Shown here piece after piece: positions 7,241 through 31,261 of a stretch of 35,182 bases of DNA. The translations under genes and the position numbers were made by a program. The stretch is from Fidelibacterota bacterium. Its GTDB lineage: Bacteria; Fidelibacterota; Marinisomatia; Marinisomatales; UBA1611. The stretch covers positions 1-35,182 of the forward strand of contig JAYNUL010000005.1 of the NCBI GenBank assembly GCA_038281125.1, given 5' to 3'. Numbering within the stretch: the first letter of the stretch is position 1; every line of letters starts with the position of its first letter. The notes below the pieces were generated by a model. That model did no database searches. It saw nothing but the letters and a program-made list of their open reading frames with translations, and had not been told where the DNA came from.

Positions 7241-8176
7241 ATGAAAGCTTGTTTTTTCATTATTACTCTAAGTGTAACAAATCTTTTTGCTCAACCTAAG
7301 GAAGGTGTCGAATTTAAGTTGAACACGATATCTGGTTATGTGATTGATAGTCTTAGCTCAAAACCAATAATGGATGTAAATGTTGATATCTACACTGGAA
7401 ATGGAATATTGAAGCATTCTACAATAACGGATGAATTTGGCTATTATGAAAGGTCTATAGTAGGATACCTCTGGAAACCAAAGATCAAATTCTCACTACA
7501 TAATTACTATAAAAAGGCGCTCAGACTCAATCCTGATGTACTGGATAGTAATTTAAATATGAGCGTTAATGTGATGATGCTCCCAGTACCAGAAGAAAAA
7601 AGAATCCCAGATTTAACTAAAAGTACTATAATAAATCGTGCAGAAACTTTTTTCAAAATTGGAAATGTCTTTTATTATCTTACTAATCAAAATAATGCTG
7701 ATCGTATTATCATAAAAACAGCAGAGGCTTTAGAAACTAATCCCGGTTTTATAATAATGAAGGTTAATGATACACACTATGATGTAGCTAGGTGTTATGT
7801 GCCTCAAGAGGGGAAATATGAAAATCTTTCATTCATTATGAAAAGTCTTTTATCTGATCCAATTTTTGAAAATTCAAAAAATCCTCTCTACTTAGATCAA
7901 AAACTTTTGGAGCCTTCTGTTATCTACGGTTACGTGATGAATATCTTGACCGGAGACCCTGTAATGGGTGCTGAAATCATTATCAGTGAACCATTTAAAA
8001 GAAGAATTTCTGATGAAAATGGCAAGTTTGCATTTTACCTTAATGATTCTGGTAGATATGATATCATTATGAACCCCCCACCTCGTTTTGAAAGAGTAAC
8101 ATTTGCAAAACCTGAAATAATCATTAATCAAGAACGAGGTGGATGGTTTAAATCTAATTTTTATGTGCGCCCTTGA
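7241..8176 (+). CDS. secreted protein with two carboxypeptidase-regulatory-like (CarboxypepD_reg) domains
   Basis: 311 aa with a signal peptide. The two domains are ISGYVIDSLSSKPIMDVNVDIY...TDEFGYYE and IYGYVMNILTGDPVMGAEIIIS...DENGKFAF. Confidence 0.6.
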   Translation: MKACFFIITLSVTNLFAQPKEGVEFKLNTISGYVIDSLSSKPIMDVNVDIYTGNGILKHSTITDEFGYYERSIVGYLWKPKIKFSLHNYYKKALRLNPDVLDSNLNMSVNVMMLPVPEEKRIPDLTKSTIINRAETFFKIGNVFYYLTNQNNADRIIIKTAEALETNPGFIIMKVNDTHYDVARCYVPQEGKYENLSFIMKSLLSDPIFENSKNPLYLDQKLLEPSVIYGYVMNILTGDPVMGAEIIISEPFKRRISDENGKFAFYLNDSGRYDIIMNPPPRFERVTFAKPEIIINQERGGWFKSNFYVRP

Positions 8177-20237: not shown

Positions 20238-22100
20238 ATGACAATGAAAGATATGGCATATATTCCTCTTTTTTGCATATTGATATTTTCTTGCACTGAA
20301 GATCCGATTACGATCCCAGAACCTGATACGACACCGCCTCAGGCAATTGTCCTCTTTCCAATTGATGGAGAACCAGTCTCCGGTGAAGTTGTTATAGAGG
20401 TCAGATCAGTTGATAATGATAAAGTGGATTCAGTCCAATTTCTTATTAATCAGAAAAGGGTGTTTACTAATTCCAGCCAGTCCAATGATATTTTCAAATA
20501 TACCTGGGATACTGAGGAAACAGTGATAGTAGATGGCGTTCAAGAAAAATTATATGCAGAGGATCAATTTCATTATATATCCGCAATAGCATACGATCCA
20601 ATTGGAAATAGTTATGCCTCTGTTACAACGAGAAGCAAAGTAGACAACATCGACAATGAACCACCAACTGCATTCTTCTTAAGCCCATTTGCTGGACAAT
20701 ATGTAAGCGATGTAGTCAATATAGAAGTAATTGCAACAGACAATGATAGCATTCAATATGTTAGCTTTTTCATCAATAATGTTTTACAAGGATATGTTCA
20801 AGAGTCTCCCTATTTATTTCCTTGGAATACGAATTTAGTTGAGAGCGGAAACTTTTATTCAATTCATGCAAATGTAAAAGATTTAAGTAATAATACTAAA
20901 ACAATAGCACCCATAAACGTTTTTGTTGATAATGGACTTGAGAGCGATGTAACGCCACCCACTGGAGCTATTGTTAGCCCTCCTGCAGGGCTAACTGTAA
21001 GTGGTGATGTACAGATAATTGTTAGCGCTAATGACAATCGCGCAATGAAAGAGGTAGCGTTATCAATCAATGGTACCTATATAACAACGATTGAGCAGCC
21101 ACCCTTTTTTTACAGTTGGGACACTTCTCTTGAGCAAGAAGATGCAGAGCATACAATAAGTGTAGTTCTTAAAGATCTTGCTGGTAATGAGACCCCTCTG
21201 AACCCTATATCAGTGGTGGTTGATAATATCGCGCCAGCAGATATAATTCCGCCAACTGTTATTATCATGAGTCCAGTTGCCGGACAAGAATTAAGCGGAA
21301 CCATAGACATAGAAGTTATTGCAAATGACAACACTGGAATAAATTATATAGAATATTATATTGATGGACAATCATATTCAGTTGATAGTATTCCCCCATA
21401 TATCCAAGAATGGGACACGGAAACTGCAGAAGATGATATGGAACATATCATTGCAGCCGTTGGTTATGATAATGAAGGTAATTCTTCGCTTGCGACACCA
21501 ATTGCGGTATACGTTGATAATCGGGATGACATTGCCCCATCTGGGCAAATTCAAAATCCAATTCCTGGACAAACTGTAAACGGAACTATTTCCATAGAAA
21601 TCATTGCAACCGATAATATAGAGGTTGATAATGTAGAACTTTCAATAAATGGTATACCCAGAGATACACTAAGTGATTTTCCTTATGTTTATGATTGGGA
21701 TACTAGCCAAGAAATTGACGATCAGAGTCATGTAATAAGTGCAGTTGTATCAGACACTTCGGGAAACATTGGTTTTATTCCTCCTGTAAGTGTAATTGTG
21801 GACAACCAGATTAATGACTCAACTCCACCAACAGGTCTTATCTCAAATCCTATTTCTGGTCAAACCGTAAGTGGAACAGTTGAAATCACCGTGCTAGCTC
21901 AAGACGATTACGGTATTGAAAATATTACATTTTTTATTGATGGAATAAATATATCAAATGATAATACAGCTCCTTATTCGTATGCATGGGACACTACAAC
22001 CCTTGAAAATGGTAGTGAGCATACCATTTCTGCATCCATTACAGATATCGTAGGCCATCAAACGATTCTTCAACCAGTTTTAGTAACCGTATCAAACTGA
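20238..22100 (+). CDS. surface lipoprotein made of six tandem Ig-like (Big_7-like) domains
   Basis: The lipobox is ILIFSC. It has six repeats of about 95-100 aa with the pattern PPxGxIxxPxxGQxVSGxVxIxVxAxDNxxIxxVxFxIxG......PYxYxWDTxxxxDxxHxIxAxxxDxxGN....PVxVxVDN. Confidence 0.75.
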   Translation: MTMKDMAYIPLFCILIFSCTEDPITIPEPDTTPPQAIVLFPIDGEPVSGEVVIEVRSVDNDKVDSVQFLINQKRVFTNSSQSNDIFKYTWDTEETVIVDGVQEKLYAEDQFHYISAIAYDPIGNSYASVTTRSKVDNIDNEPPTAFFLSPFAGQYVSDVVNIEVIATDNDSIQYVSFFINNVLQGYVQESPYLFPWNTNLVESGNFYSIHANVKDLSNNTKTIAPINVFVDNGLESDVTPPTGAIVSPPAGLTVSGDVQIIVSANDNRAMKEVALSINGTYITTIEQPPFFYSWDTSLEQEDAEHTISVVLKDLAGNETPLNPISVVVDNIAPADIIPPTVIIMSPVAGQELSGTIDIEVIANDNTGINYIEYYIDGQSYSVDSIPPYIQEWDTETAEDDMEHIIAAVGYDNEGNSSLATPIAVYVDNRDDIAPSGQIQNPIPGQTVNGTISIEIIATDNIEVDNVELSINGIPRDTLSDFPYVYDWDTSQEIDDQSHVISAVVSDTSGNIGFIPPVSVIVDNQINDSTPPTGLISNPISGQTVSGTVEITVLAQDDYGIENITFFIDGINISNDNTAPYSYAWDTTTLENGSEHTISASITDIVGHQTILQPVLVTVSN

Positions 22101-24421
22101 TGAATAAACAATATTTTTACTTGTCAATTGTATTGATGCTGTTCCTAAGCTGCGAGGGACCATTTTTTGATGTCCCAGCTGATGAAGATTCCATTCCTCC
22201 AACACTGACAATTACTTTCCCTGCAGATCAATCAATATTGTCTGATTCTGTTTTGATAAGCGCATATGCTTTTGATAACGTCGGTCTTGAAAAAGTTACT
22301 CTTTATCTTAATGATTCTATTGTACACGAAAGCACTGAAGGTCCCTATGAATATAATTGGTCTACTCTTGAGAATGCTGAAGATGAATTCCATACCATTA
22401 GGGCAAAAGCAGTTGACCTTGCTGGGAATGAGAATTTCACAAATACGATACAGGTACTAGTTGACAATCAGGATAATATAAGTCCAACTGGGGCATTAAT
22501 ATTCCCATTTACAGGTCAAATATTAACAGGTGAAATCACCATAATCTTGGAGGCAAATGACAACGATGAGGTAGCGCTTGTAACCTTATATATTGATGGC
22601 GATTCTGTAATGACTTATCAAGAACCACCCTATCGATATGACTGGAACACTCTTGAAGAAATAGATGATGTAATCCATACCATTCATGCTCACATCCAAG
22701 ACAATGCCGGCAACCAAATAACTCTGGGACCAATAAATGTAACCATTGATAATTATGAATCAGATGATAATATTGCCCCTACTGGAACCATAACCAGCCC
22801 TCCATCTGCTTCAACCGTATCTGGTACAGTAAATATTGAAGTTAATGCTTTTGACAATTTAAGAATGGGCCATGTTGATTTTATTATTGACGGTACCGCA
22901 GTATTTAGTGACTCCCTGCCCCCTTATTCCTTTAGTTGGAATACCTTGGTAGAGGCCGAAGACTCAGACCATGTGATAAATATTAACCTGTCTGATTCTG
23001 CAGGAAATACAACATCATTATATCCTGTCACTGTATTTGTTAATAATGTTGTTGATCCTGATGTTACCCCGCCAAATATTGTAATTTACGATCCTGCGGC
23101 AAATCAGACGGTTTCTGGCACAGTTACGTTTTTAACTATTGCTACAGATGACATTGCAGTTGACAGAGTAGAGTTCTATCATAATTACGAACTGGTATTT
23201 ACCGCTACATCCTACCCATTTAGCTATGATTGGAACTCAACACTTGCGGATGAAGATACAGAACACATATGGCATGCAAAGGCATTTGATACGAGTGGCA
23301 ATGAAGCACAAACTCAACCGATGGTGCTTATTGTTGATAATGTGGACAATATTCCACCAACTGGCTTTATTCTTCATCCCTATGCGGGGCAGGTAGTCAG
23401 TGGTGATATTGAGATTCAGGTTTCTGCGTCTGATAATGTTGGTGTTAATCAAGTTACATTCTTTTTAAATGGAAATATTTTATCTTCAGATTCACAGTCT
23501 CCATTTTCTTACAATTGGAATACAACTACTGCTAGCGAAGATGAAGAACATGTTCTTTATGCTAGCATTACCGATTTGCAAGGAAATACTACAAACCTTC
23601 CATCCATTTCAGTGACTGTAGATAATGATGACGCTCCAGAAAATGACATTACTCCCCCGTTTGTATCCATTATTACTCCATTATCTACTCAAACTGTGAG
23701 CGATACAGTAGTAATCACTGGTTTTGCAACTGATAATCATGAGGTTTCTCAGGTAATGTTTTATGTGAATGATCAATTGATTCAAACCGTTACTGATTCT
23801 CCTTTTACTGCATCTTGGATTACATATGATTTACCAAATAGTTCTGAACATATTCTTCAAATAACAGCAACAGATCCCTCTGGAAATCAGTCGAGTGCTC
23901 AACCTGTTTTGGTTACCGTTGTCAATGAATATATTGGTACAATAAACAATTTTACAGTTCTGGAAACTGAAAATACTATATCACTTAATTGGGATGCACC
24001 TAATAATGCTGAGTCATTTAAAATCTACAAGGATGGTAGTTTTTTGGTAGAAATCAGTGAACAAACCTTTGATGATGTTGTTGATCCAGGTGTAGAGCAT
24101 TGCTACGTAGTATCTGCAATAAATGGTGTAAATCTTGAGGGTCCGCTTTCTGAAGAGGAATGTGGTACGAGTCTTTATCCACCATCGCCAACACTATCTC
24201 TAGCGATTGATGGCTCCCTTGCAAATCTTTCTTGGACATCTGTATCGACTGCAGAATCATATAGACTATATCAGGATAATGCTTTTATAACAGAGCTAAC
24301 CGTTCTAAATCATACACTAGATATCGGAACTGGAACAAATACCTGCTTTAAAGTTACCGCGATCAATTCAATCGGAACTGAGAGCCTAGTATCTAATGAA
24401 GAATGTGGTGCAGGGTCCTAA
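22100..24421 (+). CDS. surface lipoprotein with six Ig-like (Big_7-like) domains and two C-terminal FN3-like modules
   Basis: The ATG overlaps the upstream TGA by 1 nt (tgATGa). The lipobox is LFLSC. It has six repeats of the same type as the upstream gene (PYEYNWST, PYRYDWNT, PYSFSWNT, PFSYDWNS, PFSYNWNT, PFTASW). Two modules of about 80 aa follow (SLNWDAP...YKDG...C...EECG). Confidence 0.75.
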   Translation: MNKQYFYLSIVLMLFLSCEGPFFDVPADEDSIPPTLTITFPADQSILSDSVLISAYAFDNVGLEKVTLYLNDSIVHESTEGPYEYNWSTLENAEDEFHTIRAKAVDLAGNENFTNTIQVLVDNQDNISPTGALIFPFTGQILTGEITIILEANDNDEVALVTLYIDGDSVMTYQEPPYRYDWNTLEEIDDVIHTIHAHIQDNAGNQITLGPINVTIDNYESDDNIAPTGTITSPPSASTVSGTVNIEVNAFDNLRMGHVDFIIDGTAVFSDSLPPYSFSWNTLVEAEDSDHVININLSDSAGNTTSLYPVTVFVNNVVDPDVTPPNIVIYDPAANQTVSGTVTFLTIATDDIAVDRVEFYHNYELVFTATSYPFSYDWNSTLADEDTEHIWHAKAFDTSGNEAQTQPMVLIVDNVDNIPPTGFILHPYAGQVVSGDIEIQVSASDNVGVNQVTFFLNGNILSSDSQSPFSYNWNTTTASEDEEHVLYASITDLQGNTTNLPSISVTVDNDDAPENDITPPFVSIITPLSTQTVSDTVVITGFATDNHEVSQVMFYVNDQLIQTVTDSPFTASWITYDLPNSSEHILQITATDPSGNQSSAQPVLVTVVNEYIGTINNFTVLETENTISLNWDAPNNAESFKIYKDGSFLVEISEQTFDDVVDPGVEHCYVVSAINGVNLEGPLSEEECGTSLYPPSPTLSLAIDGSLANLSWTSVSTAESYRLYQDNAFITELTVLNHTLDIGTGTNTCFKVTAINSIGTESLVSNEECGAGS

Positions 24422-24767: not shown

Positions 24768-24768
24768 G

Positions 24769-24841
24769 AGCGAGAGACGAGATTCGAACTCGCGACCCTC
24801 ACGTTGGCAACGTGATGCTCTACCAGCTGAGCTACTCTCGC
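24769..24841 (-). tRNA. tRNA-Gly (anticodon GCC)
   Basis: Reverse complement: acceptor gcgagag/ctctcgc, D arm gctc-agctggta-gagc, anticodon stem tcacg/cgtga with loop uuGCCaa, T arm gcgag-ttcgaat-ctcgt and discriminator U. No CCA is encoded. Confidence 0.9.
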
Positions 24842-24905
24842 ATTTTTGTTTTAAAATTGTTATGCGGTAACTGAAATTATGTAATGAAGACATGGATCAC
24901 AAAGC

Positions 24906-25349
24906 TCATTTTGGATAAAATTCAAGTAACCTTGATTTTGATTGGTGAACAATGTAACAGGCACCGAGAAATAGAAAATTTTCTACTATTTTTGACCATC
25001 CAACCACTTCGCCTTCTTTAAGTCCACATCCACAATCAATATTAAATCCCCTTAATATCGCTTGAGCAATCAAAACAATAAATAAAGCCAAAAGTCCTCC
25101 GCTAATAAATGTATTAGCATTTATATAAACTCCAAAAATAATGCCCAAACCAATAATTAATTCAAGCCATGGAAGAATTATTGCAATCGAATTTTCTAGT
25201 CCAAATGGGACAACATGGTAGTTAGATATATCTCGAGCAAATTTTCCAGGATCTAATATTTTATCATAGCTAGCATAAATGAAAATTAGGCCTAATAAAA
25301 TTCTTATAACTAAAATTAATACTGGATGAATTTTATTCATTATAGTCAA
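24906..25349 (-). CDS. MauE/DoxX-family redox-associated membrane protein
   Basis: 147 aa with four hydrophobic helices. Motifs are IFIYASYDKILDP..F, LPWLELIIGLGIIFG and the characteristic NIDCGCG. It overlaps the rhodanese gene by 17 nt. Confidence 0.8.
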   Translation of the reverse strand: MTIMNKIHPVLILVIRILLGLIFIYASYDKILDPGKFARDISNYHVVPFGLENSIAIILPWLELIIGLGIIFGVYINANTFISGGLLALFIVLIAQAILRGFNIDCGCGLKEGEVVGWSKIVENFLFLGACYIVHQSKSRLLEFYPK

Positions 25350-25821
25350 TATCTAGGCCTGATTCACTCCATGTTTTCCAACCACCCTTGAAGACGAGGA
25401 TATTATTAAATCCATATTCTTGCAGGTCATAGGCAAGATCTTCACTTGATCCACAATCATCATCGCTACAATAGATAACAAATCCCCTATCAAAACCAAT
25501 CAGTGTTGCTATCTCATCGGATAGTGCATCAGTATCATCATTATTAATTGCACCCGGAATAAAACCATCTTCCAAGTATTCCTCCGAGCGCGCGTCTACA
25601 AAAAGGGTACCATTTTTCTGGAGGTTCATCGCAGTCTCTAAATTAATTTCCCTTACGCTGGGTACATCTATATTTAACTCGATATTATTAGTGCTGTTTA
25701 TCTTTTCCATTGGTTTTGCTAACCAGGAAATACCACCATCCCTTAAAGCATTAAAACTGGCACCACACAAAACCGAGATTCCTGTTATAATTAAAACTTG
25801 TTTAAATAATTTTATGTCCAA
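25333..25821 (-). CDS. membrane-anchored rhodanese-like domain protein
   Basis: 162 aa with an N-terminal TM anchor. The rhodanese-like region reads LFVDARSEEYLEDGFIPGAIN, with an active-site-loop-like VIYCSDDDCGSSEDLA and FKGGWKTW. Confidence 0.8.
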   Translation of the reverse strand: MDIKLFKQVLIITGISVLCGASFNALRDGGISWLAKPMEKINSTNNIELNIDVPSVREINLETAMNLQKNGTLFVDARSEEYLEDGFIPGAINNDDTDALSDEIATLIGFDRGFVIYCSDDDCGSSEDLAYDLQEYGFNNILVFKGGWKTWSESGLDIDYNE

Positions 25822-25830
25822 TCGCTGAAC

Positions 25831-27012
25831 CTAGTGATCGTGCCCTGCATGACGATTATTTTTGTTTTTATTTCGGGCTACTGGTTTCTTTTTTGGAGCC
25901 AGAGAGTCACAGGTTTTCACTGAAGAGGTAACAAAAGCCAATAGCTCTTCATCATCTCCAACTTTATTGTTTAGTGGATTTGTTTGAAATTTTAGAGTGT
26001 TTACTGCTGAGGCAATCACTTGCTCTGAGTTTTTTAAATCTTCCCTATATTTTTTTATAAGATTTAGTACATTTTCTTGATCTGCATAAATTTCTTCAAG
26101 ATTCTTTTCTGGGTCTTTTTTCTGGAGCTTATCAAATCTTTTTTGTACTGATTTAATCTTTTTCTCTTCGGCTGATATATCAACAAATGGCACACCTTTT
26201 TCTTTGACATCCAAGGTTAAGGTCATAAGGTATTTCCCTTGCTTGCCGCAGGAATACATAAATGGTCCATTTTCTTTTTGAGGACTATTTGTTCGGGACA
26301 TGCTTGTGTTGCCGCTTGTAACTATAAAATCAATATCTGGCAGCTTTTCAGGTAACCCATTTTGAGAAGACCTACTAGCATTCACTAGCGCGACGATGAT
26401 ATCTACTTTGTTTTCTAATTCTTTTGCATACCGATTACATGATTCAATAAAATCATCTGACTTAATGAATTCCATTGTATCCGGAATAAGATCAGTAGCT
26501 CCTATTACCCCGATTTTGAGCTCTCCTCTTTCAAAAATAATATAAGGATCAAATAGAAGTTGACCTGATTTGGAATCTTTTAGATTCGATGAAATAAAAG
26601 GAATATCTGTTTTCTTTACCATTTCCTGTAGAAACGATAAACCATTTAGTACCTCATAGTGCCCAACATTTATTACATCGCATCCAACTTTCTGAAATCC
26701 CTCCATTATTGCATTCGCACGGAAAATCTCAGAATTTTTATTGGTCGCATCAATGTTCTTTGTACTAAAAAACAGATCACCTGCATCCAAGATCAATGGA
26801 TCGATCCCGGCATCTCTCATTTCTTTGATTTTAACATATTTTCTAGACAGACCGCCTAGGGGATTCTTCTTTCAGCCACAAGGGTCTAACTGGCCATGAA
26901 CTGATCCTGACATTACCATAGTAACAGTACCATGGGCTGAGGTTTTTGTACAAGACCACATGGTCATGAACATCATTATAAATAAAAAGTAACTCTTAAT
27001 TGATAATTTCAT
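25831..27012 (-). CDS. 5'-nucleotidase/UshA-like (calcineurin-fold) lipoprotein, putative selenoprotein with an in-frame UGA at codon 47
   Basis: The track ORF (25831-26820) starts mid-domain at MRDAGIDPLILDAGD and has no signal peptide. The same frame continues upstream through a single TGA (26872-26874) to the ATG at 27012: MKLSIKSYFLFIMMFMTMWSCTKTSAHGTVTMVMSGSVHGQLDPCG[TGA]KKNPLGGLSRKYVKIKEMRDAG.... This restores a lipoprotein signal (MWSC) and the first metallophosphoesterase block (..VHG..). A SECIS-like hairpin follows the TGA. The ATG lies 6 nt after the yciH stop. Confidence 0.6.
26843..26859 (-). promoter_or_regulatory. candidate bacterial SECIS hairpin
   Basis: The mRNA reads UGA AAG AAG AAU CCC CUA GGC GGU CUG UCU AGA. 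The 6-bp stem is CUAGGC / GUCUAG (one G-U pair) with loop GGUCU. Counting the U of UGA as 1, the loop occupies positions 22-26, which puts G23 and U24 where I recall them in the E. coli fdhF SECIS (..GCA GGU CUG CAC..). Confidence 0.5.
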
Positions 27013-27018
27013 TTGTTT

Positions 27019-27342
27019 TTATCCACCACTAAGTTTCACATCGTACCCTTTTTTTGAAAGGATTTCTTTGACTATGTCGCGCTTATTGCCTTGTATAAGT
27101 ATCCTGTTTTCTTTGAATGAACCTCCAACTCCGCATCTTTTTTTTAGCTCTTTTGTCAAATTGACCATTTTTTCATCTTCATGAACCAAGCCTTTAATAA
27201 CGGTAACTATTTTCCCACCGCCTCTCCTATCAAGGTGAAGGCGTACTTTCTGTTGAGATGGTTTTGGATGATGGATATCGGTTAATTCATCATCTCTGTA
27301 AGAACCATTATCAGTTGAGTATACTATTCTAGAGTTGGACAT
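27019..27342 (-). CDS. yciH: SUI1/YciH-family translation initiation factor-like protein
   Basis: 107 aa. ...VRLHLDRRGGGKIVTVIKGL...LKKRCGVGGSFKENRILIQGNKRD.V...L...GY.VK..GG is the classic SUI1/YciH pattern. Confidence 0.85.
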   Translation of the reverse strand: MSNSRIVYSTDNGSYRDDELTDIHHPKPSQQKVRLHLDRRGGGKIVTVIKGLVHEDEKMVNLTKELKKRCGVGGSFKENRILIQGNKRDIVKEILSKKGYDVKLSGG

Positions 27343-27442: not shown

Positions 27443-28789
27443 ATGCCAACAAAACTTTTCAGAATAGTCTCTAACATTTGTATTTACTCTATTTTCTTTA
27501 GTCTAAATATCTTTTCCCAATCAAATGAAAAACTAACCGGAGATATAAAAGAATCTGGCATCTACCATAAGGATATAGTACTTAAATGGAGGCCAGAGAA
27601 TAAGGAGCATGACCTTCATACTCTAGGGATTAGGGAAGCACGATTTTCATTTTCAAATATGAAGTTTACATACACCAATAATGATACATTGACCAACGCA
27701 GGAATGACATTTTCTGGACCTAATCTGACGATAAAAGATTTTGTTATTCAATCAAATATTAGATCAAAAAATTGGATAACTACCGAAAAAATAAACCGGC
27801 TAAATCGAAGAGAACGCACACCAAAGGAAGCTATTTCAATCATTGCAAATGCAATTGATTTATATTTAATGGATCATGATACCCTGCCATCTAATCTAAA
27901 TGAACTCATCATTAAAAATTATATTTCAATGGAAGCCCCTCCCTTTGATGACAATACATGGATGTACTCCTTACATCTACCTGAAAAAATTGTTTCAAAA
28001 CCAACATTCTTAAATCTTGTACCCGGTAGAGATCCTTTGCTATTTGACTGGAATTCAAGAACATTTCAAGTAGATCCGGGGAAGGATTCTCTGTATAGTG
28101 TACCGCTTGTTGATTGGAAATATGTATTCAAGATTAATGAAATATCTCAATTATATTCCTCAAATCTTGAACTAATTCTTAAGCCAGATACTTTAGATTT
28201 TGAGATTATGGTAGAGAAGGCATTATTTAAAATATCAGGGTGTTCATTTACTGCGGTCCCCAATGATATTATTGATGAGAGATCAAAAATTGTCCTTCCT
28301 GATTTAGTTCTTGAAGGTGAGAATATTGCACTTGATATCAAAAAAAATGAAATCCCTATTATTCACAGAGGAAGTGTCAGCTTTAAGATTCGCAATTTTG
28401 AAATAAAGATACCCAACGATCTAAAAGAGGAACCTGAGATACAATCTATGCTGGATGTAATGGGCATTTGGAATAATTCTCTTATGGTACGGATGTTAGA
28501 GATGGAAGTTAACCTAATTAATCAATTTACTGGAGATGCCAACTTCAAATTCCATACACCTTTTATTAAAATATCTATCAATGGTGACTTTAGTATCAGG
28601 CAAAATGGATCAAAGCCAGAGGTCTATCTGCATAACACTAAAGTTAGAATTAATCCAATTGCACTTGGAATGAGAAAGTATATCAGAAACTGGGAAAAAG
28701 ATAACGGAAGAAAATTTTCAAGAAAGGGTGCTACAATAATCTTGAACATTGACGGCCCGCTTGAGAAACCAACAATTAGAGGTTTTTAA
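27443..28789 (+). CDS. hypothetical secreted protein with an internal pseudopilin (GspG)-like segment
   Basis: 448 aa with a signal-like N-terminus (ICIYSIFFSLNIFSQ). Residues around 124-175, RTPKEAISIIANAIDLYLMDHDTLPSNLNELIIKNYI...DDNTWMYS, resemble the conserved core of type II secretion pseudopilins. The rest is an orphan. Confidence 0.55.
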   Translation: MPTKLFRIVSNICIYSIFFSLNIFSQSNEKLTGDIKESGIYHKDIVLKWRPENKEHDLHTLGIREARFSFSNMKFTYTNNDTLTNAGMTFSGPNLTIKDFVIQSNIRSKNWITTEKINRLNRRERTPKEAISIIANAIDLYLMDHDTLPSNLNELIIKNYISMEAPPFDDNTWMYSLHLPEKIVSKPTFLNLVPGRDPLLFDWNSRTFQVDPGKDSLYSVPLVDWKYVFKINEISQLYSSNLELILKPDTLDFEIMVEKALFKISGCSFTAVPNDIIDERSKIVLPDLVLEGENIALDIKKNEIPIIHRGSVSFKIRNFEIKIPNDLKEEPEIQSMLDVMGIWNNSLMVRMLEMEVNLINQFTGDANFKFHTPFIKISINGDFSIRQNGSKPEVYLHNTKVRINPIALGMRKYIRNWEKDNGRKFSRKGATIILNIDGPLEKPTIRGF

Positions 28790-29575: not shown

Positions 29576-31261
29576 TTATTTGACCATTGATAGCTTTATT
29601 GTTTCAGTAATACTGCCTGAAGAGAGCCTAAAATAATAGACTCCTGCACTTACTAAAAGGCCGTCTTGATTCTTCCCGTTCCAGATGACAACTTTTTTTC
29701 CAGCAGATTGGTTTTCCCTGAACAGGGTGGTAATTTTATTACCTCTAATATCATAAATTACTCCTTCAACTAATACTTCATCTGCCAACTGATAGGTAAT
29801 TGTTACTATTGGATTAAATGGATTTGGAAATGCATTATTTATTCTATATTCATCAAAATAAATTTTGTCTTCTATGTTTACATTTTCGCAATTCGATGTA
29901 TTTTGATCACCCTGATTTCCATCAATACAATATGGTAATTCTGAACACAAATTATTGCCGGAGATATTAAAACTTGATTGATCATCCCAGTCCAGTTCAA
30001 TATTACAGATTTCATCAGGAAGGTATCCGAATAGATTATTATTCTGTAATCTTAATCGTTCAAGATTTTGGAGATTATTAATGTTTATAGGAATCTCTCC
30101 AGTCAAATCATTATCATTTAGGTAAAGGTGGATGAGGCCTGATAATTCAAATAGCTCAGGAGGAATAATATCATAAAATAGATTTTGATGAATATAGAAA
30201 TTTTTTAGTTCTACCATATTCCCGATATCACTGGGTATTCTACCTGAAATTTGATTATTGAATACATTGAAATATTCAAGATTAATTAAGTTGCCAAGTG
30301 AATTAGGCAAAACTCCACTTAAGGAATTAACGTATAGCTTTAATTCTTTAAGATTAACCAGATTTCCAATTTCAGCAGGTATGGCTCCCGTTAAATCATT
30401 TTGAGAAAGATTTAAGTACTCTAAGGCCACCAGATTTCCAATTTCAGCAGGTATGGCTCCTGTTAAATCATTTTGAGAAAGATTTAAGGATACTAGATTG
30501 GTAAAATTCCCAATATTTTGACTAATGTTTCCAGTGACTCCAGAGTTTGATAAATCTAACTCTAATACATCATGTGCATAATAGAGTGAGTCAAATAGTT
30601 CAAAAACACCTTGGCATTCAACAATTTCCTGATTTCCAATGAATGCCTCCAAACAATCGGGGTAAGGAGGACAAAAAGAGTTATTGTCAATGTTAAAGTT
30701 TAATGGGTTACTAAAACCGATTCCAGATTCACAAATATTATCGGTAATGATACCTGTAAACTGATTATCATTCGCATGGAATTCAGATAGAAACATCAAC
30801 TGGCCTATCTCAAAAGGAAGTTCTCCGCTTAGTTGGTTATGGTCAAGAGATATTTCAACAAGTCCTGTCATATTTCCGATGCTACTTGGTACGGTTCCAC
30901 TTAGCTGATTATGTGAAAGATCCATCGACATTAAATTAGTTAGACTTCCTAATTCTTCAGGTATCCCTCCTGTTAATGAATTATGGCTTAAGTTGAATCC
31001 TAAAAGCGTTTCCATCGATACAATTTCATGGGGAATAATTCCCTCGAGGTTGTTATTGGAAAGATCTAAAAACATTAAATTTGAAAGTTGTGCAATTGTA
31101 TTTGGTATACCGCCAGAAAGTCCTTGTCCTGAAAGGTTCAGCTCATATGTGATATCAATCTCATAACAATTATCCCACAGTTCAATCTCTCCATCGTTAC
31201 ATTGCGCTAACAACCATTGGAATGAAATACATAAAAGTAATATGAAAGGATTTTTTTTCAT
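29576..31261 (-). CDS. leucine-rich-repeat protein (24-residue plant-type LRRs) with a T9SS C-terminal sorting domain
   Basis: 561 aa with a signal peptide. There are two LRR blocks of units LxxLxxLxLxxNxLxGxIPxxIGNL, each flanked by Cys-containing caps (FCPPYPDC, LCSELPYC). The C-terminus, FPNPFNPIVTITYQL...IYDIRGNKI...GVYYFRL, is the T9SS type-A sorting-domain pattern. Confidence 0.8.
   Translation of the reverse strand: MKKNPFILLLCISFQWLLAQCNDGEIELWDNCYEIDITYELNLSGQGLSGGIPNTIAQLSNLMFLDLSNNNLEGIIPHEIVSMETLLGFNLSHNSLTGGIPEELGSLTNLMSMDLSHNQLSGTVPSSIGNMTGLVEISLDHNQLSGELPFEIGQLMFLSEFHANDNQFTGIITDNICESGIGFSNPLNFNIDNNSFCPPYPDCLEAFIGNQEIVECQGVFELFDSLYYAHDVLELDLSNSGVTGNISQNIGNFTNLVSLNLSQNDLTGAIPAEIGNLVALEYLNLSQNDLTGAIPAEIGNLVNLKELKLYVNSLSGVLPNSLGNLINLEYFNVFNNQISGRIPSDIGNMVELKNFYIHQNLFYDIIPPELFELSGLIHLYLNDNDLTGEIPININNLQNLERLRLQNNNLFGYLPDEICNIELDWDDQSSFNISGNNLCSELPYCIDGNQGDQNTSNCENVNIEDKIYFDEYRINNAFPNPFNPIVTITYQLADEVLVEGVIYDIRGNKITTLFRENQSAGKKVVIWNGKNQDGLLVSAGVYYFRLSSGSITETIKLSMVK
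30358..30488. repeat. 72-bp-period tandem duplication inside the LRR gene
   Basis: 30358-30416 and 30430-30488 are identical at 58 of 59 nt (single c/t difference). This encodes the duplicated unit LNLSQNDLTGAIPAEIGNLV twice. The period of 72 bp equals one 24-aa LRR. Confidence 0.85.

What the first reader, a model, noticed from the sequence alone, without database searches (positions are those of the whole stretch)
25831..27012. Hidden selenoprotein candidate: in-frame UGA in a D-P-C-G-[U] motif of a 5'-nucleotidase-like lipoprotein
The track's 329-aa ORF begins inside the conserved fold (MRDAGIDPLILDAGD) and has no export signal. Reading the same frame upstream crosses exactly one stop, the TGA at 26872-26874. 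It reaches an ATG at 27012, 6 nt after the yciH stop and preceded by GGTGGA. The 46 added codons supply a lipoprotein signal (MWSC, matching the x-S-C lipoboxes elsewhere in the window) and the missing first metallophosphoesterase block (SVHGQL). The TGA falls in ...HGQLDPCG[TGA]KKNPLGGLSRK.... My recollection, unverified, is that homologues in other anaerobes read ...PCGC....GGLARR..., so the stop replaces a Cys and creates a C-x-U redox pair. TGA is a genuine stop elsewhere here, for example directly after the terminal ...SFNF of the beta-barrel protein and at the ends of the genes ending at 8176 and 22100. That argues against a reassigned genetic code.
Basis: partly seen in the sequence, partly recalled or inferred. 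Interest (0 to 1): 0.85.

Follow-up and report, generated by a model that had tools for sequence, protein, structure and literature searches.

The report
Known UshA-like selenoprotein gene, mis-annotated
The in-frame TGA is almost certainly a real selenocysteine codon in a marine Marinimicrobia (SAR406) lipoprotein, but this protein family, and essentially this same gene, was published as a predicted selenoprotein in 2008, so the finding is correct but not new.

Summary
On the minus strand the frame 27012->25831 has one internal stop, the TGA at 26872-26874, in HGQLDPCG[TGA]KKNPLGGLSRK.

The selenocysteine reading is supported:
- The TGA sits at the same codon in all 46 Marinimicrobia loci fetched, 34-74% protein identity (45 public, 40 distinct sequences counting the window).
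- The 46 upstream codons evolve as protein.
- A 6-bp hairpin with loop GGUCU starts 13 nt after the TGA. Its loop is in the same register as the E. coli fdhF SECIS. It has one covarying pair and three invariant synonymous sites.
- More distant homologues carry Cys at that column (C-G-C).
- TGA ends 13 of 32 long ORFs in the window, so the code is standard.

It is not new. The family is "COG0737 UshA-like, CxU" of Zhang & Gladyshev 2008, now NCBIfam NF041198 "UshA_like_PCGU". A GOS read in that paper's supplement, printed with U, is 238/240 identical to this protein.

Modest additions:
- This short form lacks the tetraheme cytochrome domain of the canonical family.
- It keeps only 2 of 7 UshA metal/catalytic residues.
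- It sits in a conserved operon with a rhodanese and a MauE/DoxX membrane protein.

The selA/B/C/D genes of the source genome could not be checked.

The parts
25831..27012 (-). Complete selenoprotein gene: 393 sense codons (Sec at codon 47) plus a TAG stop. It encodes a short-form UshA-like 'PCGU' (seleno)protein.
   Evidence: Single internal stop. NF041198 UshA_like_PCGU hit E=4.6e-65, 220 bits. 99% identical to a GOS read published as a selenoprotein. Fold is the 5'-nucleotidase N-domain.
26872..26874 (-). UGA codon 47, read as selenocysteine, in the D-P-C-G-U-K motif.
   Evidence: TGA in 40/40 distinct orthologous sequences. Cys codon in distant homologues. 'W' in public gene calls is TGA in the DNA.
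26843..26859 (-). SECIS-type hairpin 5'-CUAGGC[GGUCU]GUCUAG-3'. The stem starts 13 nt after the UGA and the loop GGUCU (26849-26853) starts 18 nt after it.
   Evidence: RNAalifold recovers 5 of the 6 stem pairs; the outer C-G pair forms in 28 of 38 sequences. One pair covaries: GC 19, AU 15, GU 4, none broken. GGC GGT CTG is invariant in 40/40, including synonymous sites. It is the local MFE at -6.8 kcal/mol, with the loop in the same register as E. coli fdhF. The same hairpin occurs in a canonical family member, L048.
26950..27012 (-). Signal peptide with a lipobox-like M-W-S-C. Cys21 would be the lipid-modified first residue of the mature protein.
   Evidence: A hydrophobic N-terminus and an x-[STA]-C at this position are conserved in nearly all orthologues: WSC, TSC, GAC, WTC, SSC, FSC. 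No signal-peptide predictor was available, so this is a pattern-based inference.
26878..26880 (-). Cys45 (TGT), the partner of Sec47 in the C-x-U motif.
   Evidence: Invariant Cys encoded by TGT (31) or TGC (9) across the 40 distinct sequences.
25333..25821 (-). Downstream gene for a membrane-anchored rhodanese-domain protein (active-site loop YCSDDDCG).
   Evidence: Pfam Rhodanese 2e-12. Lies directly downstream of the selenoprotein gene in 39 of the 45 loci fetched, counting three contigs that break off inside or just after it.
24906..25349 (-). Downstream gene for a MauE/DoxX family membrane protein (DCGCG motif). It overlaps the end of the rhodanese gene.
   Evidence: Pfam MauE 1.9e-28, DoxX 7.7e-8. 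The position is conserved.
27019..27342 (-). Upstream gene for SUI1/YciH. Its stop is 6 nt before the selenoprotein ATG.
   Evidence: Pfam SUI1 4.6e-19. NCBIfam YciH models 2.5e-26, below cutoff. Adjacent upstream in every locus whose contig reaches that far, except L043 where it lies about 1.5 kb further up.

Best explanation
The TGA at 26872-26874 is a selenocysteine codon. The true gene is 27012..25831 on the minus strand. It encodes a 393-residue exported, probably lipid-anchored, protein of a marine Marinimicrobia (SAR406) bacterium. It belongs to the published UshA-like 'C-x-U / PCGU' selenoprotein family.

Decoding (inferred from anatomy). When the ribosome reaches the UGA, the hairpin CUAGGC-GGUCU-GUCUAG lies 13-29 nt downstream. 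Its apical GGUC is in the same register as in E. coli fdhF. It would recruit SelB.GTP.Sec-tRNA(Sec), and Sec would be inserted instead of termination.

Function (inferred, low confidence). The protein has the fold of the 5'-nucleotidase N-terminal metallophosphoesterase domain. It has lost 5 of the 7 UshA metal-ligand/catalytic residues. Instead it carries an invariant Cys45-Gly-Sec47 loop inserted just after motif I. It is therefore more likely a periplasmic redox or sulfur/selenium-transfer enzyme working through a selenenyl-sulfide than a phosphoesterase.

Canonical long members of the family pass electrons through a fused tetraheme cytochrome c. This short form lacks that domain. It is instead co-transcribed with a rhodanese and a MauE/DoxX membrane protein, which plausibly supply the substrate or carrier and the link to the membrane redox pool.
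For: SHOWN for Sec coding
1. TGA is at the identical codon in 40 distinct sequences (39 public plus the window), with the public ones drawn from 42 species-representative genomes, nearly all labelled Marinimicrobia/Neomarinimicrobiota. tblastn identity to the window protein is 34-74%.
2. The region upstream of the TGA evolves as protein. D43, P44, C45 and G46 are invariant, while Pro and Gly use all four codons and Cys both.
3. Distant homologues have Cys (TGT/TGC) at that column.
4. Hairpin evidence:
- RNAalifold finds it.
- Pair 18-30, two third-codon positions, is GC 19, AU 15, GU 4, broken 0. None of 500 shuffles reaches the observed covariation score.
- G53, G54 and L55 are GGC, GGT, CTG in 40/40. 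Other invariant Gly/Pro codons use four synonyms.
- In four Cys homologues these codons vary.
5. The loop GGUC(U) starts 18 nt after the UGA, exactly as in E. coli fdhF. That sequence was verified in 5412 E. coli records. The same hairpin and spacing occur in a canonical NF041198 member, L048.
6. TGA ends 13 of 32 long ORFs, and about 90% of the window is coding under table 11.
7. The best NCBIfam hit is NF041198 'UshA_like_PCGU', UshA-like (seleno)protein, E=4.6e-65.
8. The GOS 2008 supplement prints a 238/240-identical read with U, and another read starting at the same Met.

For function
- AlphaFold model of the orthologue P0059: pLDDT 80.5, pTM 0.79. Foldseek top hits are E. coli UshA at about 1e-16.
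- hhalign to UshA gives D41->S, H43->H, D84->D, N116->H/K, H117->Y, H217->N, H252->G.
- No Pfam Metallophos hit.
- Canonical members carry four CxxCH motifs.
- Gene order SUI1 / selenoprotein / rhodanese / MauE-DoxX / tRNA-Gly is conserved even at 34-37% identity.
Against: - No selA, selB, selD or tRNA-Sec lies in the window or in about 300 kb of related loci. The rest of the source genome could not be searched.
- Peng et al. 2016 (PMC5029168) list three SAR406 single-cell genomes as having an 'orphan' SelD, meaning no selA/selB was detected. This is probably due to incompleteness but remains unresolved.
- The hairpin is short (6 bp, -6.8 kcal/mol). It is not significant by single-sequence energy: z = -1.2 for 39 nt and -0.44 for 81 nt.
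- Only one pair shows double changes, and no Rfam family matches.
- The protein scores 220 bits, below the 275-bit cutoff of NF041198.
- The Sec loop is modelled at pLDDT below 50, and with a W placeholder.
- The functional proposal rests only on residue loss, domain comparison and gene neighbourhood. The rhodanese/MauE association is not seen next to the canonical long form or the Cys forms.
Confidence: 0.9

Rival explanations
1. SelB-independent read-through. The UGA is suppressed by a near-cognate tRNA (Trp or Cys), helped by the downstream hairpin, so the protein carries Trp or Cys rather than Sec.
For: The Sec machinery was not found in any sequence available here. SAR406 single-cell genomes were reported with SelD but without selA/selB. 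Several public gene calls show W at this column.
Against: The W calls are simply TGA translated with another table. Homologues with a sense codon always have Cys, never Trp. A lineage needing Cys could use TGT/TGC, yet TGA is kept in 40/40 sequences. The loop GGUC at +18 nt matches the SelB-binding register of fdhF. The family is curated as a selenoprotein family.
Confidence: 0.05
2. Pseudogene, assembly or sequencing error, or a gene split by a nonsense mutation. Only the 329-aa downstream ORF, or nothing, is functional.
For: Almost all public annotations call only the 329-350 aa downstream piece.
Against: The same TGA occurs in 40 distinct sequences (39 public plus the window) from independent metagenomes, MAGs and single-cell genomes. 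There are no other stops or frameshifts. The upstream 46 codons are under protein-level constraint. The downstream piece alone lacks the signal peptide and the first beta-strand of the fold, residues 28-35 in the model.
Confidence: 0.01
3. Reassigned genetic code, with TGA read as Trp or Gly throughout the genome (table 4 or 25).
For: Some gene callers translated these contigs with TGA=W.
Against: 13 of 32 ORFs of at least 100 aa end in TGA, including ones overlapping or abutting the next gene (8173-8176, 22100). Table 11 gives about 90% coding density. There are no other credible internal TGAs.
Confidence: 0.01
4. Two separate products: a 46-residue lipopeptide ending at the TGA, and a cytoplasmic 329-346 aa protein made by re-initiation. 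The hairpin would serve translational coupling.
For: Possible starts exist downstream. Gene callers use the Leu/Met codon before GGLSR, or the ATG at MRDAG.
Against: The downstream start is not conserved in position or type: ATG, CTG, TTG or ATA at codon 52. Cys-containing homologues are single continuous proteins across this point. The fold needs both parts.
Confidence: 0.02

Closest known systems
UshA-like (seleno)protein: 'COG0737, UshA-like' with motif CxU (Zhang & Gladyshev 2008, PLoS Genet, PMC2398784); NCBIfam NF041198 'UshA_like_PCGU'
   Same: Same P-C-G-U motif right after motif I of a 5'-nucleotidase-like domain. Same Sec/Cys column. Same SECIS hairpin, loop and 18-nt spacing (L048). 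NF041198 is the best family hit, E=4.6e-65. The paper's supplement contains reads 99% and 93% identical to this protein, printed with U.
   Different: NF041198 models a protein of about 519 residues. Its last ~130 residues are a tetraheme (4 x CxxCH) cytochrome c554-like domain. The window protein stops at model position 396, has no CxxCH, ends in a Lys-rich tail plus HxGHxH, and scores 220 bits against the 275-bit cutoff. It is therefore a short, heme-less form that the NCBI model would not name.
E. coli fdhF SECIS (SelB-dependent bacterial selenocysteine insertion sequence)
   Same: A hairpin inside the coding region just 3' of the UGA. The apical loop begins with GGUC exactly 18 nt after the UGA, and the hexamer GGUCUG is shared.
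   Different: The stem is shorter (6 bp against the longer bulged fdhF stem), the loop is 5 nt rather than 4, and there is no bulged U. Binding to SelB was not tested.
E. coli UshA / 5'-nucleotidase N-terminal metallophosphoesterase domain (PDB 1ush, 1hp1 and others)
   Same: Same fold: Foldseek E about 1e-16, probability 1.0. Profile match 97.5% probability. Periplasmic location.
   Different: Only H43 and D84 of the seven metal/catalytic residues are kept. There is no Pfam Metallophos hit and no C-terminal nucleotide-binding domain. A DPCG insertion precedes the Sec.
UshA-like (seleno)protein family 2 (NF049981, CxxU) and thiosulfohydrolase SoxB (TIGR04486)
   Same: Both are distant relatives of the same fold: NF049981 at 2.9e-7, SoxB at 7e-17. 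SoxB shows that this fold can act on sulfur compounds bound to a carrier cysteine.
   Different: Both score far below their cutoffs (30 vs 140 bits, 61 vs 550 bits). The motif is CxU rather than CxxU. SoxB's dimanganese ligands are not conserved here.

Membership tests
UshA-like CxU selenoprotein family (COG0737 UshA-like; NF041198 UshA_like_PCGU) | In-frame UGA in a P-C-G-U motif directly after motif I of the 5'-nucleotidase-like domain | tested here: met
   DPCG[TGA]K at codon 47. Identical in 40/40 distinct orthologous sequences and in the canonical member L048.
UshA-like CxU selenoprotein family (COG0737 UshA-like; NF041198 UshA_like_PCGU) | Score at or above the curated NCBIfam cutoff (275 bits) | tested here: not met
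   220.2 bits, covering model positions 2-396 of 519. Canonical members P0200, P0214 and P0264 score 531, 492 and 372 bits. The shortfall corresponds to the missing C-terminal domain.
UshA-like CxU selenoprotein family (COG0737 UshA-like; NF041198 UshA_like_PCGU) | C-terminal tetraheme cytochrome c554-like domain (present in members that pass the NF041198 cutoff) | tested here: not met
   There is no CxxCH in the 393-aa protein. P0200, P0214 and P0264 each have four (Pfam Cytochrome_C554).
UshA-like CxU selenoprotein family (COG0737 UshA-like; NF041198 UshA_like_PCGU) | Inclusion in the sequence set on which the family was reported (GOS 'COG0737_UshA') | tested here: met
   JCVI_READ_1095390122424 is 238/240 identical and JCVI_READ_1469868 is 200/215 identical. 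Both are printed with U. 71 of the listed sequences contain DPCGU.
Bacterial selenoprotein gene (SelB/SECIS-dependent UGA recoding) | Cys-containing homologues aligned at the UGA column | tested here: met
   CGC or CSC in nine distant homologues. TGT/TGC in the four whose DNA was read.
Bacterial selenoprotein gene (SelB/SECIS-dependent UGA recoding) | Conserved stem-loop shortly 3' of the UGA with G/U in the apical loop | tested here: met
   6-bp stem and loop GGUCU, 13-29 nt after the UGA. One covarying pair with no broken cells. Synonymous sites are frozen. Same register as fdhF.
Bacterial selenoprotein gene (SelB/SECIS-dependent UGA recoding) | selA, selB, selD and tRNA-Sec in the same genome | not testable with these tools
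   None lie in the window or the loci. The literature reports only SelD in three partial SAR406 single-cell genomes.
Bacterial selenoprotein gene (SelB/SECIS-dependent UGA recoding) | Selenium demonstrated in the protein | not testable with these tools
   Needs an experiment. None was found in the papers read.
Catalytically active calcineurin-like metallophosphoesterase / 5'-nucleotidase | Fold of the N-terminal dimetal domain | tested here: met
   Foldseek against the PDB: E. coli UshA, CD73 and YfkN at 1e-16 to 1e-14. The model is of the orthologue P0059, pLDDT 80.5.
Catalytically active calcineurin-like metallophosphoesterase / 5'-nucleotidase | Metal ligands and catalytic dyad (UshA D41, H43, D84, N116, H117, H217, H252) | tested here: not met
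   The aligned residues are S, H, D, H/K, Y, N, G. There is no Pfam Metallophos or 5_nucleotid_C hit.

The most novel reading that the evidence does not exclude
The short, heme-less UshA-like selenoprotein, the membrane-anchored rhodanese and the MauE/DoxX protein together form an undescribed periplasmic sulfur (or selenium) redox module of SAR406/Marinimicrobia. In this reading a phosphoesterase fold has been converted into a Cys-Sec enzyme that processes persulfide, thiosulfate or polysulfide on a carrier and passes electrons to the membrane. That would bear on sulfur cycling in the dark ocean and in oxygen-minimum zones. The function of the family has never been established, so this reading is not excluded.
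Probability: 0.25. Interest if true: 0.55.

Novelty: already known. Interest (0 to 1): 0.2.

Why it matters
As a discovery it adds little. The family has been in the selenoprotein literature since 2008 and has a curated NCBI model.

It matters in three practical ways:
1. Essentially every public gene call for this abundant marine clade is wrong. Calls are 329-350 aa truncations lacking the signal peptide and active-site loop, or carry 'W' at the Sec column. The NCBI model's cutoff would also miss the short form.
2. The function of the family is still unknown. The loss of the dimetal site, the fused cytochrome in long forms and the rhodanese/MauE operon in SAR406 give a concrete, testable redox or sulfur hypothesis.
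3. The very simple, strongly conserved SECIS gives a clean pattern for finding more members: UGA, then 12 nt, then a 6-bp stem with loop GGUCU.

Tried and rejected
- Pfam scan of the full protein found no Metallophos or 5'-nucleotidase hit, only a chance P4Ha_N match.
- Rfam found only three tRNAs at gathering thresholds and nothing SECIS-like at E<=10 on the 121-nt region. Rfam has no model for this element.
- The single-sequence MFE of 81 nt did not show the hairpin and was not significant, z = -0.44. The evidence for the hairpin is comparative, not energetic.
- The first genome-collection scan, with the single protein, found nothing. The alignment-based scan worked.
I used a profile of full-length database orthologues instead.
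- tRNA-Sec was not found in the window or in the 40 related loci scanned.
- A scan for other in-frame TGAs with a nearby Cys, in the window and about 300 kb of loci, gave only noise in non-coding frames.
- Literature searches for Sec machinery in Marinimicrobia/SAR406 found only an 'orphan SelD' listing.
- The Sargasso Sea (2005) and Olavius symbiont (2007) selenoproteome papers do not mention the family.
- Rejected readings: pseudogene, sequencing error, reassigned code, two separate genes, and membership in SoxB or UshA-like family 2 (scores far below cutoffs).
Full report
OBSERVATION

On the minus strand, the frame that starts at the ATG at 27012 and ends at the TAG at 25831-25833 contains one internal stop. 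It is the TGA at 26874..26872 (codon 47), in the context SGSVHGQLDPCG[TGA]KKNPLGGLSRK.

The ATG lies 6 nt after the TAA of a SUI1/YciH gene (27019-27342). The mechanical ORF list holds only the 329-aa piece beginning MRDAGIDPL.

TGA is an ordinary stop in this organism:
- It ends 13 of the 32 ORFs of at least 100 aa; TAA ends 13 and TAG 6.
- Table 11 gives about 90% coding density.
- No other internal TGA in the window joins two credible coding segments.

IS THE TGA CONSERVED?

A search of 5.8 billion proteins returned 404 relatives. Nearly all are called as 329-350 aa products that start just after the TGA. The few full-length calls show 'W' at the column. Where I read the DNA, that W is a TGA.

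An alignment-based scan of one genome per GTDB species gave 42 loci. Where the record title names a phylum it is almost always Marinimicrobia/Neomarinimicrobiota; many titles say only 'uncultured bacterium'. With the loci from exact look-ups this makes 45 public loci. Together with the window they give 40 distinct sequences around the site.

All of them have TGA at the same codon. This includes the most distant group, at 34-37% protein identity.

The 46 upstream codons behave as coding sequence. D43, P44, C45 and G46 are invariant, while Pro and Gly use all four synonymous codons and Cys both. The hydrophobic N-terminus with an x-[STA]-C lipobox-like end is kept in nearly all.

This excludes a read error, a pseudogene and a fortuitous upstream ORF.

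SEC/CYS COLUMN

A profile search of 1.84 billion cluster representatives found 9527 relatives. I read 23 of them.
- Among those spanning the site, nine have Cys at the column: CGC in P0138, P0154, P0159, P0176, P0198, P0203, P0238 and P0262, and CSC in P0264.
- Seven show the W/TGA pattern.
- Five have lost the motif.
- In the four Cys forms whose DNA I fetched, the codon is TGT or TGC.

SECIS

Thirteen nucleotides after the UGA begins the hairpin 5'-CUAGGC[GGUCU]GUCUAG-3' (26859..26843).
- RNAalifold recovers 5 of its 6 pairs on 38 distinct sequences; the outer C-G pair forms in 28 of the 38.
- The pair formed by the third position of codon 52 and the third position of codon 56 is G-C in 19, A-U in 15, G-U in 4 and never broken. 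None of 500 column shuffles reaches the observed covariation score. Slid registers pair in 21-54% of cells, against 96% for the proposed structure.
- Codons 53-55 are GGC GGT CTG in 40 of 40 sequences. Other invariant Gly and Pro codons (46, 69, 72, 78) use all four synonyms.
- In four Cys homologues the same G-G-L is encoded by varying codons. The constraint is therefore on the RNA and not the protein.
- The 39 nt starting at the UGA fold into exactly this hairpin (-6.8 kcal/mol), with the loop at positions 22-26.
- The E. coli fdhF SECIS has its GGUC loop at positions 22-25, the same 18-nt spacing after the UGA. I verified that sequence as 100% identical in 5412 E. coli records under fdhF.
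- The same hairpin, loop and spacing follow the TGA of a canonical long family member (L048).

Weak points: the stem is short, single-sequence energies are not significant, only one pair covaries, and Rfam has no matching model.

WHAT IS ALREADY KNOWN

- Zhang & Gladyshev 2008 (PMC2398784) list 'COG0737, UshA-like', motif CxU, with 76 selenoproteins in 20 GOS samples and 92 Cys homologues. It appears among 51 previously described families.
- Their supplementary sequence file has a '#COG0737_UshA' block in which 71 sequences contain DPCGU.
- JCVI_READ_1095390122424 is 238/240 identical to residues 34-273 of the window protein.
- JCVI_READ_1469868 starts at the same methionine (MKISIKSYFLFIMTFMTMWSC...) and is 200/215 identical.
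- Both reads are printed with U.
- Later reviews keep the family as 'UshA-like protein, CxU' and give the NCBIfam model NF041198.
- That model, named UshA_like_PCGU, is the best hit of the window protein: E=4.6e-65, 220 bits.

The finding is therefore a correct, independent rediscovery of a published selenoprotein.

HOW THIS GENE DIFFERS FROM THE CURATED FAMILY

The score is below the 275-bit cutoff, and the match covers model positions 2-396 of 519. Members that pass the cutoff (P0200, P0214, P0264; 372-531 bits) are about 520 residues long. They end in a cytochrome c554-like domain with four CxxCH motifs.

The window protein has no CxxCH. It ends in a Lys-rich tail and a conserved HxGHxH. 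Short forms of 350-400 residues, with either Sec or Cys, are also common outside Marinimicrobia.

FOLD AND ACTIVE SITE

An AlphaFold model of the 55%-identical orthologue P0059 was built with 41 sequences (pLDDT 80.5, pTM 0.79). Its best PDB matches are E. coli UshA, CD73 and YfkN, at E of 1e-16 to 1e-14.

Profile alignment to E. coli UshA (97.5% probability) places the family's residues opposite the UshA metal ligands and catalytic dyad as follows:

| UshA residue | This family |
|---|---|
| D41 | S |
| H43 | H |
| D84 | D |
| N116 | H/K |
| H117 | Y |
| H217 | N |
| H252 | G |

The identity of the UshA ligands is from my knowledge of the UshA structures.

In the most distant orthologues even the His of motif I is Arg. 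Pfam finds no Metallophos domain and no 5'-nucleotidase C-terminal domain. DPCG is an insertion relative to UshA, immediately after motif I.

Inference: the fold is retained but the dimetal phosphoesterase chemistry probably is not. The invariant Cys45-Gly-Sec47 loop sits where the active site used to be.

CONTEXT

The gene order is SUI1/YciH, selenoprotein, rhodanese-domain protein (25333-25821), MauE/DoxX membrane protein (24906-25349), tRNA-Gly(GCC).
- The rhodanese has an N-terminal hydrophobic anchor and a YCSDDDCG loop.
- The MauE/DoxX gene overlaps the end of the rhodanese gene.
- Both downstream genes follow the selenoprotein gene in 36 of the 45 loci. In three more the contig ends inside or just after the rhodanese gene. 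The six exceptions are L001-L003, L016, L025 and L029. The 34-37% identity group keeps the order.
- This neighbourhood is absent around the canonical long form and around the Cys forms examined.
- The rhodanese's best NCBIfam hit is a weak match to 'rhodanese_LYCAU (seleno)protein'.

MOST LIKELY MECHANISM

Decoding: SelB-dependent Sec insertion at UGA47, directed by the GGUCU hairpin. The anatomy is shown; the factor dependence is inferred.

Function (inferred, roughly 25-30% confidence): an exported, lipid-anchored redox or sulfur/selenium-transfer enzyme. It would cycle through a Cys45-Sec47 selenenyl-sulfide. The fused tetraheme cytochrome serves the long forms. In SAR406 the rhodanese and the MauE/DoxX membrane protein would take that role.

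WHAT COULD NOT BE DONE

selA, selB, selC and selD of the source genome could not be searched. None lie in the window or the loci. The only literature statement found lists three partial SAR406 single-cell genomes as having SelD without the other genes. This keeps a small probability for SelB-independent read-through.

VERDICT

- Observation: confirmed.
- Interpretation: supported.
- Novelty: already known.
- Remaining value: correcting annotation, and a testable functional hypothesis for a family whose function is still unknown.

Noticed in passing
window 24768-27342 (minus strand); loci L005-L046: The gene order SUI1/YciH, UshA-like selenoprotein, rhodanese, MauE/DoxX, tRNA-Gly(GCC) is conserved across Marinimicrobia, down to 34-37% identity of the selenoprotein. 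It is absent next to the long cytochrome-fused form (L048) and next to the Cys forms (L050, L051, L053).
   Followed up: partly
L050:2501-3622 (Cys-form homologue P0154): This homologue has TGT at the Sec column but still carries a perfect hairpin, CUUGGC-GGUCUU-GCCAAG, 15 nt downstream. It may be a fossil SECIS left by a recent Sec-to-Cys replacement.
   Followed up: no
window 25333-25821 (minus strand): The neighbouring rhodanese has an unusual acidic active-site loop, YCSDDDCG (C-x4-C). Its best NCBIfam hit is a weak match (43.6 bits, cutoff 115) to 'rhodanese_LYCAU, rhodanese-related (seleno)protein'. Here the position of the U is Asp.
   Followed up: partly
P0200 / L048:2833-4446; P0214; P0264: Canonical NF041198 members carry a C-terminal tetraheme (4 x CxxCH) cytochrome c554-like domain. 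In L048 the gene is also split by the caller at the TGA, into a 51-aa ORF plus a 481-aa ORF.
   Followed up: yes
public protein databases (P0001-P0120): Practically every deposited gene call for this clade is truncated to 329-350 aa, starting at an arbitrary Met or Leu after the TGA. The rest carry W at the Sec column from table-4 translation. One such cluster has 323 member sequences.
   Followed up: yes
window 25834-25851 (minus strand, last codons); alignments A1 and A4: A C-terminal H-x-G-H-x-H tail (HAGHDH, HSGHNH, HEGHDH) after a Lys-rich linker is nearly invariant in the Marinimicrobia short forms. It may be a metal-binding tail.
   Followed up: no
window 27443-28789 (plus strand): A divergently transcribed 448-aa ORF has no Pfam or NCBIfam hit. 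It is nevertheless conserved at this position in most related loci (27-59% identity).
   Followed up: no
window 20238-24421 (plus strand) and 29576-31261 (minus strand): Two adjacent large lipoprotein-like proteins are made of repeated Big_7 Ig domains. A leucine-rich-repeat protein nearby has an FlgD_ig/Por_Secre_tail-type C-terminus, which suggests type IX secretion cargo.
   Followed up: no
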